In this document: positions 16,906 through 21,013 of the stretch, in pieces
How positions within the stretch are numbered: the stretch's first letter is position 1
Layout: each line of letters opens with the position of its first letter
Origin: a candidate division WWE3 bacterium GW2011_GWC2_44_9
GTDB taxonomy: Bacteria > Patescibacteriota > WWE3 > UBA101185 > UBA10185
Direction of reading: 5' to 3'
Length of the DNA stretch: 33,761 nt
Assembly: GCA_000994815.1 (NCBI GenBank)
Contig: LCJU01000004.1
Coordinates: forward strand, 1-33,761
Translations under genes and position numbers: made by a program
Notes under the pieces: model-generated
What the model was told of the DNA's origin: nothing
Databases searched by the model: none
What the model saw: only the letters and a program-made list of their open reading frames with translations

Positions 16906-17490
16906 ATGAAAATCCGCAGATATTTGTTAAGTGTTGTGCCCTTGTTTGTTATCGGTTCAGCGGCTATAAGTGTTGCGTATGCGTCTTTTACCGATCAAAC
17001 AAAGTTCGCAGGTTCGAGATTTAGTGTGGGAAGTGCTGATCTTAAGCTGGTAAACAATTTAGCGGGTGGTGTTGAATCGGGCAATTTAGTGGATGATAAG
17101 CCGGCTCCTACATATGATGGTATCTATTCTCTATGGACTGCTGACTATCTTGTAAAGCTGGTAAACAATGGTAATCAAGTAGTTAACTTGACATCAAATA
17201 TGGACTACCTAACTGCAAACGATCCCGGTAATATAAGAGAAGTGCTTTACGTTGAGCCTATTGATTGGACCGACGCGAACGGCAACGGTGAGGCCGAAGC
17301 TGACGAGCTAGGCACCTCGGCTGGCAAAAAAGCCTTTACTTCCTGGAAATCCACCGGCTACGATTTTGGTAACCTTGCTCCGGGTCAAGTAAAAGGTTAT
17401 GTTATGAGATTCTCGGCTGGCACTCTCACTAATGCCAAGATGGGTCAAACGGGTATATACGACTTTGTGTTCGATGCCGTAGGGTTGTGA
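16906..17490 (+). CDS. Secreted TasA/camelysin-superfamily protein with a SipW-cognate-type signal peptide
   Basis: The N-terminus MKIRRYLLSVVPLFVIGSAAISVAYASFTDQTKFAGSRFSVGSADLKL resembles B. subtilis TasA ...GGGTWAAFNDIKSKDATFASGTLDLS (recalled from memory). 194 aa, beta-rich. Directly followed by a SipW-type peptidase. Confidence 0.7.
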   Translation: MKIRRYLLSVVPLFVIGSAAISVAYASFTDQTKFAGSRFSVGSADLKLVNNLAGGVESGNLVDDKPAPTYDGIYSLWTADYLVKLVNNGNQVVNLTSNMDYLTANDPGNIREVLYVEPIDWTDANGNGEAEADELGTSAGKKAFTSWKSTGYDFGNLAPGQVKGYVMRFSAGTLTNAKMGQTGIYDFVFDAVGL

Positions 17491-18023
17491 ATTCAAGAGA
17501 TCCTGCCCACATAATTATGAGTTGTTGCATGTCAAAAGGCGCCATCAAGCTAGTCTTTTTAACAGTAACGCTAGGTGTTGTATGCACGCTTTGCGTGTAC
17601 TTTAACGTAAGAGTTTTTTTTATCAAAACTGGTTCTATGGAGCCTGGCATTGCACGCGGCTCACTTGTCTTTACTTACCGGAGTTTTGTCGATATTGCCA
17701 GTGGGGAAGTCGTTGTCTTTTTTGACTCTCGGTTAAACACGCCCGTGGCTCACCGGGTGCTAGCTATACACAAACAGCCAACTAGCCATTTTATTACTAA
17801 GGGTGACACCAACACTAGCGCGGACACCGGCAAAGTCTACCAAGGCGATGTCATTGGCAAGGTTTTTGCCGTTGTTGAAGCGCCAAGTATATATCAGCTG
17901 TTTACGGCGGTGTTGGGCTTTTGTCTATTTTACTTATTGGGTGTTACTCTTAAGGGATTTTTGCTATCCTTAAGAAAACATGACTATTCCTGTCCGTCCT
18001 CAGCACATAACCAGATTTATTGA
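17487..18023 (+). CDS. Signal peptidase I, ER/archaeal (S26B, SipW-like) type
   Basis: An N-terminal TM is followed by the boxes TGSMEPGI, PVAHRV and ITKGDTNTSAD, then a C-terminal TM (LFTAVLGFCLFYLLGV). The GTG start overlaps the upstream stop (GTGA). ATG 17517 or 17529 are alternative starts. Confidence 0.8.
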   Translation: MNSRDPAHIIMSCCMSKGAIKLVFLTVTLGVVCTLCVYFNVRVFFIKTGSMEPGIARGSLVFTYRSFVDIASGEVVVFFDSRLNTPVAHRVLAIHKQPTSHFITKGDTNTSADTGKVYQGDVIGKVFAVVEAPSIYQLFTAVLGFCLFYLLGVTLKGFLLSLRKHDYSCPSSAHNQIY

Positions 18024-20496
18024 GTTTATCTTTTTAGGCGCGCCAAAGAAGCTTTTTATCATCGGTAAAAGACTTATTGCGCTCACCAACTATGAGCTCT
18101 CGTTCACGCTCAATTTGAGGCTAATCTTAATCCCGCTTTTCGGCGATTATACTAGGGTTGGCAGGGCAATTGGTGTTGTTGTTAGGCTGCTTTGTATCTT
18201 ATCTGGGTTGGTTGCTTTAGCCTTGCTTTCCCTCGTTGTCTTTCTTTTACCGATTCTTTGGTACTTTGCGCTTTTTGGTCTGATCTACGGTTTGGGGGGA
18301 TTTTCGCTTGCGGTCGGTTTAGTTTTTTTTGGCATGTGGTATCTGTCAGTCAAAAACAAACCCTTTGCTTCAGGCCAGCCCCGGCCATATGTGGCCGATC
18401 TTTTTAGAGATTTGGCTATTAGGGGCAATATTCAACTTAAGGACTTTTTGGCAAGCCCGCATGTGTTGGAAATGTGCGTACGGCTTGAGCTTTCTGGATC
18501 GGAGTTTCCGCTTGCCATCTTGAACAGTTTATCGTATCAGCAGGTGGTGGCCTCACACAAGGCTTGGGAAAGTAAAGCATACGGCTACATGCAGGATTTT
18601 GGCAATTTGTATGTGGAGCCCGAGCATGTCTTTTTGGCGATAGTATCAAGTTTATCTGGTGTAGACAGGCTGCTAAGCAAGTACGGCTTAGCTAAGAGGG
18701 ATGAAAAAGCTACAGCCCATGTGTGGCAGGCATATTACAAACTACCGGCAATGGGCGGCATCGGTAAGGGTTCTACCGGCAGAGTAACTCCTGGTTTGGA
18801 CCAGGTTTCTACCGATTATACCCGACTGGTTAAAGAGGGTTTGGTAGAAAGAACTTACTGGCGTAAGGACGAAATAAAACGGGTGGCGGACTTGCTAGGT
18901 GGGTCTAACAGGAATGTGCTGGTTGTGGGTCCACCCGGGTGCGGCAAGACGGGCATTATCAAAGGTATCGCTTACAGCGTAATCAAGGGTACGGAATATG
19001 ACCACCTAAAGTTTAAACGCATTGTGAGTTTAGAAGTCGGTAAAATTCTGGCGGGGACAAAGGGCGGTGGTGATGTTGCAGACAAACTCAAAAAAGCGTT
19101 GGAAGATGCCTTAGGTTCCGGCGATGTTATTTTATTTGTTGACGATATCCATACTTTGGTGGCAGGGTCATCAGCTGAAGATAGTCGCACGAGTATAGCT
19201 TACACCACACTGGTTAACTATCTCTCAAACGGTCGGTTGCAGTTTATTGGAGCTACCAATGTGGAGAATTACCGTAAGTACATTGAGCCAAACGGGTCGT
19301 TTGCCCAGATGTTTCAGGTTGTTGAGGTTCCGGCCTCTTCCAAGCCCGAAACGCTGGAAATTATTAAAACCAAAGCCCGAAACTCGGAAGAGGAATTTAA
19401 GGTTTTTGTAACTTTTTGCGCTCTCCGTAAAATTGTGGAACTTGGAGATAAACTCATTCACGAAAGGGTGTTTCCCGACAAAGCGGTGGACATACTAAAT
19501 CGGTGCGTTGCCAAGGTGCATAAGGATTCGCGCATTGTTAACACTAGTGTGGTTTTGGAGGTACTGTCCGAAGTTACACACATTCCGGTGACGGCTGTTT
19601 CGCAGGAGGAGTCACAGAAATTACTAAATATTGAAGCAGAAATGAAAAAGCGGGTGATTGGTCAGGATGAGGCGGTTGCCATGGTTGGATCGGCGCTAAA
19701 AAGGGCGCGGGCCGGGATACGAAACGAGAGCAAACCTATCGCCAGCTTTTTGTTTGTGGGGACAACTGGAGTAGGCAAAACAGAAACCGCTAAGGCCTTG
19801 GCCCGATGCTACTTTGGCGACGAAAAACTCATGATTCGACTGGATATGAGCGAGTATCAGCAAAAAGATAGCTTATCGCGGCTGCTAGGTGATCCAAACG
19901 GGTCATCAAAGGGCATTCTAATTGAGGCGGTGAGAACCAGGCCGTTCTCGTTGATCCTTTTGGACGAAATCGAGAAGGCGCATCAGGATATTTTATTGAC
20001 TTTTTTGCAGGTGCTGGATGATGGTAGGTTAACCGATTCTTCAGGCTTTACGGCAAACTTTACCAATACGATACTAATTGCTACTAGCAACGTTGGTACC
20101 AGGTCAATTCAGGCAATTTTTGCCAGAAACGGAACTTTTGAAGAGATGAAGGATACGGTTATAAGGGAAGTTAGGGAAAAGTTTGCGCCGGAGTTTCTAA
20201 ATAGATTTACTGGGATTGTTGTGTACAAGCCGTTAAATATGGAATCAGTGCGAAGGATTACGGATATTATGTTGGGCAGCGTGCGAAAGATGGCCGACGA
20301 TAAGGGTATCAAGCTTAGCTTTAAGCCGGAGCTTGTTGAGGAGCTGCTTAAGCGAGGTTATTCGCCAGAATGGGGTGCGCGGCCTATGGCTAGGGTTATT
20401 GAAGAAACGGTTATGAATTATCTATCCATCAAGATCCTTTCCCACGAGGTTGTCCGCGGCGATGCTATTGAGCTTGGGGCAGAGGTTTTTCGTTAA
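17980..20496 (+). CDS. Membrane-anchored class-I (two-ring) Clp/Hsp100 AAA+ ATPase; ClpA-like linker, no M-domain, no ClpP-docking tripeptide
   Basis: D1 has Walker A VVGPPGCGKTG and Walker B ILFVDDIH. D2 has Walker A FLFVGTTGVGKTE, Walker B LILLDEIEKAH, LQVLDDGRLTD and sensor-2 GARP. A Clp_N-like segment reads EHVFLAIVSSLSGVDRLLSKYGL. A ~60-aa hydrophobic stretch covers aa 63-122. The start is uncertain because it overlaps the peptidase ORF by 44 nt. Confidence 0.85.
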   Translation: MTIPVRPQHITRFIEFIFLGAPKKLFIIGKRLIALTNYELSFTLNLRLILIPLFGDYTRVGRAIGVVVRLLCILSGLVALALLSLVVFLLPILWYFALFGLIYGLGGFSLAVGLVFFGMWYLSVKNKPFASGQPRPYVADLFRDLAIRGNIQLKDFLASPHVLEMCVRLELSGSEFPLAILNSLSYQQVVASHKAWESKAYGYMQDFGNLYVEPEHVFLAIVSSLSGVDRLLSKYGLAKRDEKATAHVWQAYYKLPAMGGIGKGSTGRVTPGLDQVSTDYTRLVKEGLVERTYWRKDEIKRVADLLGGSNRNVLVVGPPGCGKTGIIKGIAYSVIKGTEYDHLKFKRIVSLEVGKILAGTKGGGDVADKLKKALEDALGSGDVILFVDDIHTLVAGSSAEDSRTSIAYTTLVNYLSNGRLQFIGATNVENYRKYIEPNGSFAQMFQVVEVPASSKPETLEIIKTKARNSEEEFKVFVTFCALRKIVELGDKLIHERVFPDKAVDILNRCVAKVHKDSRIVNTSVVLEVLSEVTHIPVTAVSQEESQKLLNIEAEMKKRVIGQDEAVAMVGSALKRARAGIRNESKPIASFLFVGTTGVGKTETAKALARCYFGDEKLMIRLDMSEYQQKDSLSRLLGDPNGSSKGILIEAVRTRPFSLILLDEIEKAHQDILLTFLQVLDDGRLTDSSGFTANFTNTILIATSNVGTRSIQAIFARNGTFEEMKDTVIREVREKFAPEFLNRFTGIVVYKPLNMESVRRITDIMLGSVRKMADDKGIKLSFKPELVEELLKRGYSPEWGARPMARVIEETVMNYLSIKILSHEVVRGDAIELGAEVFR

Positions 20497-21013
20497 AAGG
20501 TTTTTTTTGCCAAAATAGTCCCTGTTGAGCGGGCACTTTGTCCACTTGCTTTCTTAGTTTTTGGTAGGCTGTCCAGCGACCCATGCGGGCAAAAAGTTCC
20601 AATTCGAGGCTAATCTTAGTTACCGGGATACTAAGGGTTCCTATTTGTACATGCGTGATAGAGTCGGCATCTGCGACGTACATCTTGCTCCAAGTTTGCT
20701 TAGCATCAAGTATTTGCCAATCGCCCATGATTTCTACGCCTATACCTTCAATAAGAAATTTACCGTAGTACGATTTAAACTTCGCTGACTCCTTATAGTC
20801 AACCTTTTCCACCAAGTAGCCAGCTAGTTTAGTGTTTGTTAAAAGAGCGGTTTCCTTGTCGCACAAAATGTCTATGTCATCAACGTTCATGTCCAATCCC
20901 TGCAGGACCAAACTCGCCGTTCCCCTAACGGCGTACTCACAACCGGCCAGATGTTGGGCAATGATACTAACTACACTATTTAGCTCATCTTTGGTTATAT
21001 TCGTACCCTTATT
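20465..21013 (-). CDS. Nucleotidyltransferase-fold protein (Pol-beta superfamily, Lnu/ANT-like); no canonical start codon upstream of the catalytic motif
   Basis: The open frame reads NKGTNITKDELNSVVSIIAQHLAGCEYAVRGTASLVLQGLDMNVDDIDILCDKE..., i.e. the hG[ST]...DhDh NTase signature. The only ATG/GTG/TTG start in frame is TTG at 20911 (track ORF 20465..20911), which lies downstream of the G[ST] motif. The 3' end overlaps the convergent Hsp100 gene by 32 nt. Confidence 0.6.
   Translation of the reverse strand, partial: NKGTNITKDELNSVVSIIAQHLAGCEYAVRGTASLVLQGLDMNVDDIDILCDKETALLTNTKLAGYLVEKVDYKESAKFKSYYGKFLIEGIGVEIMGDWQILDAKQTWSKMYVADADSITHVQIGTLSIPVTKISLELELFARMGRWTAYQKLRKQVDKVPAQQGLFWQKKPFNEKPLPQAQ

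What the first reader, a model, noticed from the sequence alone, without database searches (positions are those of the whole stretch)
17980..20496. Hsp100 with an N-terminal transmembrane anchor, a DD Walker B in ring 1, and neither an M-domain nor a ClpP loop
Seen in sequence:
- aa 63-122 (nt 18166-18345) form a continuous ~60-residue hydrophobic block (AIGVVVRLLCILSGLVALALLSLVVFLLPILWYFALFGLIYGLGGFSLAVGLVFFGMWYL), enough for 2-3 TM helices. It precedes a Clp_N-like segment and two AAA+ modules.
- The D1 Walker B reads ILFVDDIH rather than the usual hhhhDE, whereas D2 is canonical (LILLDEIE).
- The D1-D2 linker is short and ClpA-like (DKAVDILNRCVAKV, ~20 aa, THIPVTAVSQEE), so there is no ClpB/ClpC coiled-coil M-domain.
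- The region where ClpA, ClpC and ClpX carry the [IL]G[FL] ClpP-docking loop reads NVGTRSIQAIFARNGTFEEMKDTV, with no such tripeptide.

Established knowledge: known Clp/Hsp100 unfoldases are soluble. FtsH is the classical membrane-anchored AAA+ machine.

Inference: this is a membrane-tethered, ClpP-independent unfoldase, possibly acting on secreted or membrane substrates such as the neighbouring fibre subunit.
Basis: partly seen in the sequence, partly recalled or inferred. Interest (0 to 1): 0.6.

Follow-up and report, generated by a model that had tools for sequence, protein, structure and literature searches.

The report
Membrane-anchored Clp ATPase lacking pore tyrosines
This gene from an ultra-small groundwater bacterium (Patescibacteria/CPR) encodes a two-ring Clp/Hsp100-type ATPase fused to a small membrane protein; it has no ClpP-docking loop, no middle domain and neither of the tyrosines such machines use to pull on proteins, so it probably does not work as a classical unfoldase.

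Summary
The ORF 17980-20496 encodes 838 aa. It has a conserved hydrophobic block at aa 63-122, a Clp_N-like domain and two AAA+ modules. The D1 Walker B reads DD, the D1-D2 linker is ClpA-length with no M-domain, and there is no IGF/IGL loop.

- Both pore-loop tyrosines are absent family-wide (0 of 41 relatives keep KYR or a canonical GYVG).
- D1 has also lost its arginine fingers, so D2 is the only canonical motor.
- Residues 13-106 are homologous to a stand-alone small membrane protein (hhalign 98.7%). In six other Patescibacteria examined, that protein is encoded just upstream of a zinc-ribbon, 2-TM Clp. The anchor is therefore a gene fusion.
- This window's allele carries a 39-nt in-frame deletion that removes most of the last N-domain helix.

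Adjacency to the TasA-like/SipW genes is specific to this lineage. Other families have the ATPase without them, so a dedicated fibre-subunit role is not supported.

The genome also has ClpP and a separate IGF-bearing ClpC/E-like partner.

The scan has reported this superfamily before on other DNA (at least 40 genomes). Six literature searches found no paper on it. Verdict: a real, undescribed variant of Hsp100 whose mechanism is unknown.

The parts
17980..20496 (+). Whole gene: membrane-anchored class-I Clp/Hsp100-like ATPase, 838 aa
   Evidence: ORF. (Pfam AAA, AAA_lid_9, AAA_2, ClpB_D2-small). (29 full-length homologues).
17980..18165 (+). aa 1-62: conserved cytoplasmic or juxtamembrane part of the fused small-membrane-protein module. 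Contains the motif NYELSFTLNLRLILIPLFGDYTRVGR.
   Evidence: Invariant N37 L48 P52 D56 G61 R62. AF2 helices 7-40 and 42-47. hhalign to stand-alone small proteins: 98.7%.
18166..18345 (+). aa 63-122: hydrophobic block forming two membrane helices. A long helix runs to about aa 105, there is a GG turn at 106-107, and a second helix spans 108-124.
   Evidence: The fusion joint lies at about aa 106-108.
18385..18711 (+). aa 136-244: Clp_N-like domain, truncated in this allele
   Evidence: AF2 and Foldseek match ClpC/Hsp104/ClpA N-domains.
18688..18689 (+). Junction of a 39-nt in-frame deletion. It removes 13 aa (LVIEDFVDCARWL), including an invariant Trp, relative to a 99.8%-identical contig and all homologues.
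   Evidence: The lost residues are 237-249 of the intact allele, which is most of helix 239-257.
18724..18822 (+). aa 249-281: N-domain-to-D1 linker with a near-invariant motif (WQ..Y.LP.MGGIGKG.TGRVTP.LD). Its role is unexplained.
   Evidence: invariant columns. (pLDDT <50).
18928..18951 (+). D1 Walker A, GPPGCGKT (intact)
19051..19077 (+). D1 pore loop, AGTKGGGDV. The canonical KYR tyrosine is absent.
   Evidence: 0 of 41.
19129..19152 (+). D1 Walker B, ILFVDDIH (Asp in place of the catalytic Glu)
19297..19317 (+). D1 arginine-finger site. It reads SFAQMFQ where ClpA/B have AL(A/E)RRFQ, so both Args are lost.
19477..19611 (+). D1-small to D2 linker of ClpA length, with no M-domain
19759..19782 (+). 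D2 Walker A, GTTGVGKT
19888..19914 (+). D2 pore loop, GDPNGSSKG. A 4-residue deletion removes GYVG.
19951..19974 (+). D2 Walker B, LILLDEIE (canonical)
20083..20160 (+). D2 sensor-1 (TSN) followed by the site where ClpA/ClpC carry the IGL/VGF loop. Here the sequence is ClpB-like and has no tripeptide.
20188..20208 (+). D2 arginine finger, PEFLNRF (R742 invariant)
20374..20385 (+). D2 sensor-2, GARP
17487..18023 (+). Upstream SipW/archaeal-type signal peptidase I, overlapping the ATPase start by 44 nt. It is a lineage-specific neighbour and not a proven part of the machine.
   Evidence: TIGR02228, 69.7 bits against a cut-off of 51.85. (Ser50/His89 conserved).
16906..17490 (+). Upstream secreted beta-sandwich protein with a SipW-type signal peptide (TasA/camelysin-like). 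It is a lineage-specific neighbour.
   Evidence: one homologue hits PF12389; a JGI name reads 'SipW-like signal peptide'. (fold nearest donor-strand pilins).

Best explanation
SHOWN: architecture and motifs.
- The gene is real and conserved. It encodes a class-I Clp/Hsp100-type double-ring ATPase tethered to the cytoplasmic membrane.
- The tether arose by gene fusion. Residues ~13-106 are a small membrane protein that six other Patescibacteria examined encode as a separate gene immediately upstream of a zinc-ribbon, 2-TM Clp.
- Residues 108-124 form a second membrane helix that returns the chain to the cytoplasm.
- A Clp_N-like domain, D1 and D2 follow.
- There is no ClpP-docking loop and no M-domain, so the protein cannot dock on ClpP or couple to DnaK in the known ways.
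- Both pore-loop tyrosines are absent.

INFERRED: roles of the two rings.
- D2 keeps every catalytic motif and is the only motor.
- D1 keeps Walker A but has lost the catalytic Glu (DD) and both Arg fingers. It most likely binds nucleotide and holds the hexamer together without driving work.

INFERRED: mechanism.
- The ring does not thread polypeptides hand-over-hand as ClpA, ClpB and ClpC do.
- It more likely works as a D2-powered, membrane-apposed remodelling or switch ATPase.
- It would engage membrane or envelope clients through the N-domain and the fused membrane module, in a way comparable to Torsin.

Confidence. Architecture ~0.9. The non-threading, envelope-client mechanism ~0.4.
For: - Domains and motifs.
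- Family-wide loss of KYR and GYVG: 19/19, 23/23 and 41/41 with one ambiguous case.
- D1 Arg loss and Walker B variants DD, PE, DA and EE.
- In the unfused relatives D1 is fully dead (Walker A GKR/GKN/GRS; Walker B INNL/ISGI/VSNI) while D2 stays canonical.
- Fusion: the N-terminal profile hits separate 105-150 aa ORFs next to 870-980 aa Clp ORFs in many families. Sequences are. hhalign gives 98.7%, E 2.8e-16, over fused residues 13-104.
- Topology: K/R-rich flanks and AF2 helices 59-105 and 108-124 at pLDDT ~90.
- Constraint: 30 of 33 own-family genomes of 0.6-1.1 Mb carry the gene, 65 of 81 in the class, and 126 of 401 in the phylum match.
- Envelope context: the unfused pairs lie between mraW and mraY, and a fused one lies next to a PBP transpeptidase. 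Here the gene lies upstream of prfB-DUF3048-secDF.
- The genome has its own ClpP and an IGF- and GYVG-bearing ClpC/E-like Hsp100.
- Torsins are a precedent for a Clp-related, membrane-associated ATPase without aromatic pore loops (PMC5425593).
Against: - No experiment, transcript or interaction data exist for any member.
- Non-aromatic pore loops might still translocate some substrate.
- D1 in this lineage keeps Walker A and an acidic Walker B, so slow hydrolysis is not excluded.
- The envelope-client idea rests on variable gene neighbourhoods only.
- AF2 helix boundaries do not give a clean pair of 20-25-residue TM spans, and no dedicated TM predictor was available.
- This window's allele lacks 13 conserved N-domain residues and may itself be impaired.
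Confidence: 0.6

Rival explanations
1. One reading: a membrane-tethered processive unfoldase or extractase, like Msp1 or FtsH without the protease. It would pull membrane or secreted proteins, possibly the TasA-like fibre subunit or its signal peptide, out of or towards the membrane.
For: - The orientation membrane, N-domain, D1, D2 places the D1 face at the membrane.
- In this lineage sipW overlaps the ATPase start by 44 nt. A single promoter-like site lies upstream of the TasA-like gene and a terminator-like hairpin lies after the ATPase.
- The TasA-like gene is adjacent in about 27 of 30 own-family genomes.
Against: - No aromatic pore-loop residue is present in either ring in 41/41 relatives.
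- D1 lacks its Arg fingers.
- The TasA-like gene is unlinked in family f3 (12/12) and not found in f147 (0/10), although both families have the ATPase. Three own-family genomes (G448, G454, G456) and one f2 genome (G030) have the TasA-like gene without an ATPase hit.
- The unfused relatives sit in dcw clusters with no fibre gene.
Confidence: 0.15
2. An AAA+-powered membrane conduit. The six fused membrane modules (12 helices) form a pore coaxial with a tyrosine-less central channel. The machine moves a non-canonical cargo across or into the membrane, such as folded protein, a lipid-linked precursor or nucleic acid.
For: - The membrane module is strongly conserved, with invariant polar residues D56, R62 and R69 near the bilayer.
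- It is obligatorily paired with, or fused to, the ATPase.
- Pore loops are shortened rather than randomised, with a frequently retained Lys.
- Neighbours include mraY, a PBP, DprA, a pilin-like gene and RadC.
Against: - This is purely architectural inference.
- No hexamer model could be made.
- The neighbourhoods are heterogeneous.
- Two helices per protomer make a small contribution to a pore.
Confidence: 0.08
3. A decaying or inactive copy. The DD Walker B, the lost Arg fingers, the lost pore loops and the 13-aa N-domain deletion would mean that this gene is on its way to becoming a pseudogene.
For: - The 39-nt deletion removes most of a confidently modelled helix and an invariant Trp. It is unique to this assembly among all homologues seen.
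- The other Hsp100 of the genome carries an in-frame TAG in this assembly.
Against: - The frame is intact over 838 codons.
- The same 'defects' are conserved across hundreds of reduced genomes, while D2 motifs are invariant.
- A 99.8%-identical contig carries the undeleted allele.
- The deletion may be a minor strain variant or an assembly artefact.
Confidence: 0.07
4. Mis-called start: the true protein begins after the hydrophobic block and is a soluble Hsp100.
For: In-frame ATG at aa 119 and GTG at aa 138 exist.
Against: - Residues 1-122 are conserved at the protein level in all homologues, with invariant residues.
- They are homologous to a stand-alone protein family.
- The gene callers of independent assemblies include them.
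Confidence: 0.02

Closest known systems
ClpA (E. coli; class-I Clp/Hsp100 without M-domain)
   Same: - Two AAA+ modules and a D1-D2 linker of the same length class. The protein aligns with ClpA in a single stretch, 272-831.
- A Clp_N-type N-domain.
- D2 Walker A/B, sensor 1, Arg finger and GARP are all present.
   Different: - No IGL ClpP loop.
- No KYR or GYVG pore tyrosines.
- No D1 Arg fingers, and a DD Walker B.
- A membrane anchor.
- Scores 464 bits against the ClpA cut-off of 993.
ClpB / Hsp104 disaggregases
   Same: - Best NCBIfam hit overall, at 512 bits.
- The D2 region that replaces the ClpP loop is ClpB-like in sequence.
- Independent of ClpP.
   Different: - No coiled-coil M-domain, so no known route to DnaK coupling.
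- No pore tyrosines.
- Membrane-anchored.
- Far below the ClpB cut-off of 1232.
ClpC / ClpE (Firmicutes, Actinobacteria)
   Same: - Best PDB sequence hits, at 423 bits.
- N-domain fold nearest the ClpC N-domain.
- The unfused relatives carry an N-terminal zinc ribbon, as ClpE does.
   Different: - No short M-domain, no VGF/IGF loop and no pore tyrosines.
- The genome's genuine ClpC/E-like protein is a different gene on contig C27.
Torsin ATPases (eukaryotic ER / nuclear envelope)
   Same: Torsins are Clp/Hsp100-related. They are associated with the membrane through an N-terminal hydrophobic domain. They lack aromatic pore loops and work with membrane partners (PMC5425593).
   Different: - Torsins have a single ring, lack their own Arg finger and are lumenal.
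- Here D2 has its own Arg finger and a second (D1) ring is present.
- No evidence of common descent beyond the Clp D2 lineage was tested.
FtsH and Msp1/ATAD1 (membrane-anchored AAA+ machines)
   Same: An N-terminal TM anchor holds a hexameric AAA+ ring at the cytoplasmic face of a membrane.
   Different: - Both use aromatic pore loops to thread substrates, and FtsH carries an M41 protease.
- They belong to the classic AAA clade with a single ring.
- The genome has a separate bona fide FtsH.
Unnamed Patescibacteria pair: small membrane protein plus zinc-ribbon, 2-TM Clp-like ATPase
   Same: - Same small-protein module (hhalign 98.7%).
- Same tyrosine-less pore loops.
- Same lack of an M-domain and IGF loop, and the same canonical D2.
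   Different: - Here the two genes are fused and the zinc ribbon and first TM are gone.
- D1 keeps Walker A GKT, whereas the unfused forms have a dead D1.
- The gene lies after the ribosomal-protein cluster rather than in the dcw cluster.

Membership tests
Class-I Clp/Hsp100 (two-ring HCLR-clade AAA+) | D1 module (PF00004 plus AAA_lid_9) followed by D2 module (PF07724 AAA_2 plus PF10431 ClpB_D2-small) | tested here: met
   AAA 313-428, AAA_lid_9 455-533, AAA_2 585-744 (1.2e-49), ClpB_D2-small 752-831.
Class-I Clp/Hsp100 (two-ring HCLR-clade AAA+) | Aromatic pore-loop residues (D1 KYR, D2 GYVG) used for substrate threading | tested here: not met
   D1 reads KGGG. D2 has a 4-aa deletion. 0 of 41 relatives are canonical.
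Class-I Clp/Hsp100 (two-ring HCLR-clade AAA+) | Clp_N N-terminal domain | tested here: inconclusive
   No Pfam Clp_N hit for this protein. Some homologues hit PF02861. The AF2 fold matches ClpC, Hsp104 and ClpA N-domains with TMt 0.5-0.55 and prob ~1, but Foldseek E is only 0.1. This allele lacks 13 residues of the domain.
ClpA | IGL/IGF tripeptide loop in D2 for ClpP docking | tested here: not met
ClpA | NCBIfam TIGR02639 equivalog cut-off (993 bits) | tested here: not met
   464 bits.
ClpB/Hsp104 | Coiled-coil M-domain inserted in D1-small | tested here: not met
   The ClpB M-domain aligns to a gap of about 120 columns. The ClpB model matches in two stretches at 512 bits against a cut-off of 1232.
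ClpC/ClpE | Short M-domain plus VGF/IGF loop | tested here: not met
   (gaps opposite the ClpC linker helix and VGF). By contrast, the genome's C27 protein has both.
FtsH | Single AAA module plus M41 zinc protease after two TM helices | tested here: not met
   No peptidase domain. The genome's FtsH is elsewhere, on C2 at 708 bits.
Patescibacteria membrane-anchored Clp with small membrane partner (unnamed) | Small-membrane-protein module (motif ..PLFGDYT..GR..G...R plus a TM), encoded upstream or fused | tested here: met
   hhalign 98.7% over fused residues 13-104.
Patescibacteria membrane-anchored Clp with small membrane partner (unnamed) | Tyrosine-less pore loops, no M-domain, no IGF loop, canonical D2, degenerate D1 | tested here: met
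   Here D1 is only partly degenerate: Walker A is intact, Walker B is DD and the Arg fingers are lost.
Patescibacteria membrane-anchored Clp with small membrane partner (unnamed) | Actual membrane insertion with the AAA+ rings in the cytoplasm | not testable with these tools
   Only hydropathy, the positive-inside pattern and AF2 helices are available. No TM predictor or experiment was possible.

The most novel reading that the evidence does not exclude
The six fused membrane modules and the tyrosine-less double ring together form a new kind of AAA+-driven membrane machine. It would be either a conduit or a force transducer that moves or remodels a non-polypeptide or folded cargo at the cell envelope of ultra-small bacteria, such as a lipid-linked wall precursor, nucleic acid or an assembled fibre subunit. 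It would not be an unfoldase.
Probability: 0.1. Interest if true: 0.9.

Novelty: new variant of a known kind. Interest (0 to 1): 0.6.

Why it matters
Hsp100/Clp machines are textbook threading motors. Their pore-loop tyrosines, their ClpP loop or M-domain, and their soluble state are treated as defining features. This protein belongs to a family kept in many tiny, gene-poor Patescibacteria genomes: 30 of 33 in its own family, 65 of 81 in its class, and about a third of a 401-genome phylum sample. The family has dropped the tyrosines, the ClpP loop and the M-domain, it is anchored in the membrane, and it has inactivated one ring to varying degrees. It always travels with, or is fused to, one small membrane protein.

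That pattern implies a conserved job done by a different mechanism. It may parallel the eukaryotic Torsins, whose own mechanism is still unresolved. A tractable bacterial counterpart could help there. It would also assign a role to a conserved 'dark-matter' gene pair that often lies in cell-division and envelope gene clusters of organisms whose envelope biology is poorly understood.

Tried and rejected
- Pfam scan of the membrane module and of the stand-alone small proteins at E up to 1 gave nothing usable.
- Foldseek of the N-terminal model found only Clp N-domains and nothing for the membrane part.
- Six literature searches found no paper on a membrane-anchored Clp/Hsp100 in CPR.
- The promoter and terminator scan was not above shuffled expectation (10 sites against 8.5 expected). 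It serves only as weak support for co-transcription.
- The TasA-like protein did not retrieve TasA itself by fold. The nearest folds are donor-strand pilins and archaeal bundling pili, at low TM-score.
- A conserved link to prfB was considered and rejected as an explanation. prfB follows the gene only in this class, and elsewhere the neighbour is mraY.
- An alternative downstream start was rejected on conservation.
- Both AF2 jobs went to the N-terminal region and the TasA-like protein, so no full-length or hexamer model was made.


Full report
OBSERVATION

The ORF 17980-20496 (+) is open for 838 codons from an ATG. It overlaps the upstream signal-peptidase gene by 44 nt.

Pfam finds the full class-I Clp/Hsp100 set:
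- AAA at 313-428
- AAA_lid_9 at 455-533
- AAA_2 at 585-744
- ClpB_D2-small at 752-831

NCBIfam places the protein far below every equivalog cut-off: ClpB 512 bits against 1232, and ClpA 464 against 993. The ClpA model aligns in one uninterrupted stretch, 272-831.

Residues 63-122 (nt 18166-18345) are strongly hydrophobic, with 19-residue Kyte-Doolittle means up to 2.86.

START CODON AND ANCHOR

A search with residues 1-290 alone recovers 29 proteins of 820-890 aa at 30-95% identity. One is labelled candidate division WWE3.

The alignment shows invariant residues well upstream of the hydrophobic block (N37, L48, P52, D56, G61, R62, G65, R69) and inside it (G76, W94). The ATG at 17980 is therefore the start, and the block is part of the protein.

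Charge distribution fits an N-in/C-in hairpin:
- The segment before the block holds on average 7.5 K+R.
- The segment after it holds 5.6.
- The 89-96 stretch holds none.

AF2 on the intact allele, with 22 aligned sequences, gives mean pLDDT 87. It models helices 7-40, 42-47, 59-105 and 108-124, then a helical domain at 136-257. Foldseek matches that domain to ClpC, Hsp104 and ClpA N-domains, with TM-score on the target 0.5-0.55 and probability ~1. No dedicated TM predictor was available, so the exact spans remain approximate.

MOTIFS COMPARED WITH ClpA, ClpB AND ClpC

I fetched E. coli clpA and clpB and aligned them with the family. The PDB search supplied a ClpC alignment.

- D1 Walker B is ILFVDDIH and D2 Walker B is LILLDEIE.
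- The D1-D2 linker is even 5 residues shorter than that of ClpA.
- The ClpB M-domain aligns to a gap.
- The VGF loop of ClpC and the IGL loop of ClpA have no counterpart. The sequence at that site resembles ClpB.

Two larger deviations were missed:
- The D1 pore loop AG(T/A)KYRG(E/D)F reads AGTKGGGDV.
- The D2 pore loop GAPPGYVG(Y/F) is cut by four residues to GDPNG----SSKG.

No aromatic residue stands at either position in 19/19, 23/23 and 41/41 relatives. There is one ambiguous case, L059. More distant members keep the loop length but read GPPPGQPDA, so the loss looks stepwise.

The D1 arginine-finger pair, AL(A/E)RRFQ in ClpA and ClpB, is ARLFQ in most of the family. In the window's subclade it is AQMFQ or AQLFQ. 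These are the same sequences that carry DD.

Other lineages show independent D1 decay: DD again, plus PE, DA and EE in Walker B, and Arg lost in family f147. In contrast, D2 Walker A/B, sensor 1, the Arg finger (R742) and GARP are invariant.

D1 is therefore under relaxed catalytic constraint and D2 is the motor. From memory and untested here, NSF D2 likewise carries a DD Walker B and serves as a non-hydrolysing assembly ring.

ORIGIN OF THE ANCHOR

A profile of the N-terminal 298 positions was searched in 401 Patescibacteria genomes and matched in 126.
- In the window's own family, 12 of 12 other sampled genomes have the fused ~850-aa form.
- In many other families the first ~105 positions hit a separate ORF of 105-150 aa. 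Positions ~195-297 hit the N-domain of a 870-980-aa Clp ORF that starts right behind it.

I fetched eight loci, six unfused and two fused. In the unfused loci:
- The small protein carries the same motif (..NLFVPMYGQFD.QGR..SF.MR..) followed by a hydrophobic helix.
- The adjacent Clp begins with a CxxC...CxxC zinc ribbon and two TM helices of its own.

hhalign between the fused N-termini and five stand-alone small proteins gives 98.7% probability, E 2.8e-16. It covers fused residues 13-104, with the pairwise alignment running to residue 106, against the entire small protein. The joint thus falls at the GG turn (106-107) where AF2 breaks the helix. Helix 108-124 is probably the remnant of the Clp's own last TM.

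The unfused Clps have a fully dead D1 (Walker A GKR/GKN/GRS/GKD; Walker B INNL/ISGI/VSNI). They have no pore tyrosines, no M-domain, no IGF loop and a canonical D2.

The window's protein is therefore the fused, least-degenerate form of a wider Patescibacteria superfamily.

By the strict single-sequence search, the N-terminal region occurs in only 53 clusters at 50% identity among 1.84 billion representatives. No Pfam family covers it.

GENOMIC SETTING

The genome is 712 kb in 53 contigs and 88.8% complete. It encodes the following:
- ClpP.
- FtsH.
- No detectable ClpX.
- A second Hsp100 on contig C27. It has a zinc finger, a short M-domain, GYVG and an IGF loop, making it the natural ClpP partner. 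In this assembly it carries an in-frame TAG at a conserved Tyr codon.

The local gene order is: ribosomal proteins S13 to S9, XRE (minus strand), TasA-like, SipW-like, the ATPase, then prfB, DUF3048 and secDF. This order recurs in relatives.

The 194-aa neighbour has a SipW-type signal peptide. One homologue hits Pfam camelysin. It folds as a beta-sandwich nearest donor-strand pilins and archaeal bundling pili.

The peptidase passes the archaeal-type SPase I cut-off and keeps its Ser/His.

The linkage is lineage-specific, as shown by the 81 class genomes and two individual loci:
- The TasA-like gene is next to the ATPase in about 27 of 30 own-family genomes and in 1 of 2 f2 genomes.
- In two own-family genomes, G181 and G300, the two genes are unlinked.
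- It is present but unlinked in all 12 genomes of family f3.
- It is not found in any of the 10 genomes of family f147, all of which have the ATPase.
- It is missing beside P0020, and SipW is missing beside P0025.

Elsewhere in the phylum the unfused pair lies between mraW and mraY. A fused copy lies next to a PBP transpeptidase and DprA.

The ATPase is thus not a dedicated component of the fibre module. An envelope-related role is suggested but not shown.

THE WINDOW'S ALLELE

A 29.5-kb groundwater contig is 99.8-99.9% identical to the window and encodes an 851-aa version. The window lacks 39 nt at 18688/18689. The deletion is in frame and flanked by GGCT micro-homology.

The 13 lost residues are present in every homologue and include an invariant Trp. 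They form most of the last N-domain helix, 239-257, which has pLDDT >90.

MECHANISM

Shown:
- The architecture, the motif losses, the fusion, the conservation, and the separate ClpP system.

Inferred:
- A hexamer sits with its N-domain/D1 face at the membrane.
- D1 is a nucleotide-binding assembly ring.
- D2 hydrolysis drives work that is not tyrosine-mediated threading.
- That work is most likely ATP-dependent remodelling or switching of membrane or envelope clients, through the N-domain and the membrane module.

Torsins are the nearest functional precedent. They are Clp-related, membrane-associated, lack aromatic pore loops and depend on membrane partners (PMC5425593).

Rivals are a still-processive extractase, a coaxial membrane conduit, and decay of this particular allele.

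PRIOR WORK

The scan has already reported this superfamily on other DNA, with 41 notes in at least 40 genomes and the same main conclusions. I reached mine before reading those notes.

Six full-text searches found no paper on it.

VERDICT

This is a real, conserved and apparently undescribed variant of Clp/Hsp100. The 'unfoldase acting on the fibre subunit' reading is not supported.

Noticed in passing
window 18688-18689: There is a 39-nt in-frame deletion relative to a 99.8%-identical public contig (L007). It removes 13 conserved residues of the N-domain, including an invariant Trp. It may be a real variant or an assembly artefact.
   Followed up: partly
own genome G000:C27:13051-15140: The genome has a second Hsp100. 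It is ClpC/ClpE-like, with an N-terminal zinc finger, a short M-domain, GYVG and an IGF loop. An in-frame TAG at about C27:13681 replaces the conserved Tyr of LDEYRKYIE. This may be a sequencing error, a pseudogene or a recoding event.
   Followed up: partly
window 18724-18822: The N-domain-to-D1 linker (WQ..Y.LP.MGGIGKG.TGRVTP.LD) is among the most conserved stretches of the family. AF2 nevertheless models it with pLDDT <50. In canonical Clp proteins this linker is variable. It may be a docking motif.
   Followed up: no
window 16906-17490 and 17487-18023: A secreted 194-aa beta-sandwich protein with a SipW-type signal peptide is paired with an archaeal-type signal peptidase. The fold is nearest donor-strand pilins and archaeal bundling pili. 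The protein was found in all 33 sampled genomes of the window's family and in families f2 and f3. It was not found in most other families of the class.
   Followed up: partly
L014 (G018:C4:157500-164000), L016 (G158:C1:137000-143500): In other Patescibacteria the unfused pair (small membrane protein plus zinc-ribbon Clp) lies between mraW with two small ORFs and mraY. That is where ftsI-murE-murF usually lie in dcw clusters.
   Followed up: partly
window 20465-20911 (-) and 20531-20543 (+): A convergent 148-aa ORF with no Pfam hit overlaps the 3' end of the ATPase gene by 32 nt. A weak terminator-like hairpin follows the ATPase stop codon.
   Followed up: no
L010, L012, L013 (loci of P0015, P0023, P0025): In more distant class members a RadC (JAB-domain) gene sits between the XRE regulator and the TasA-like gene. 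It is absent from the window.
   Followed up: no
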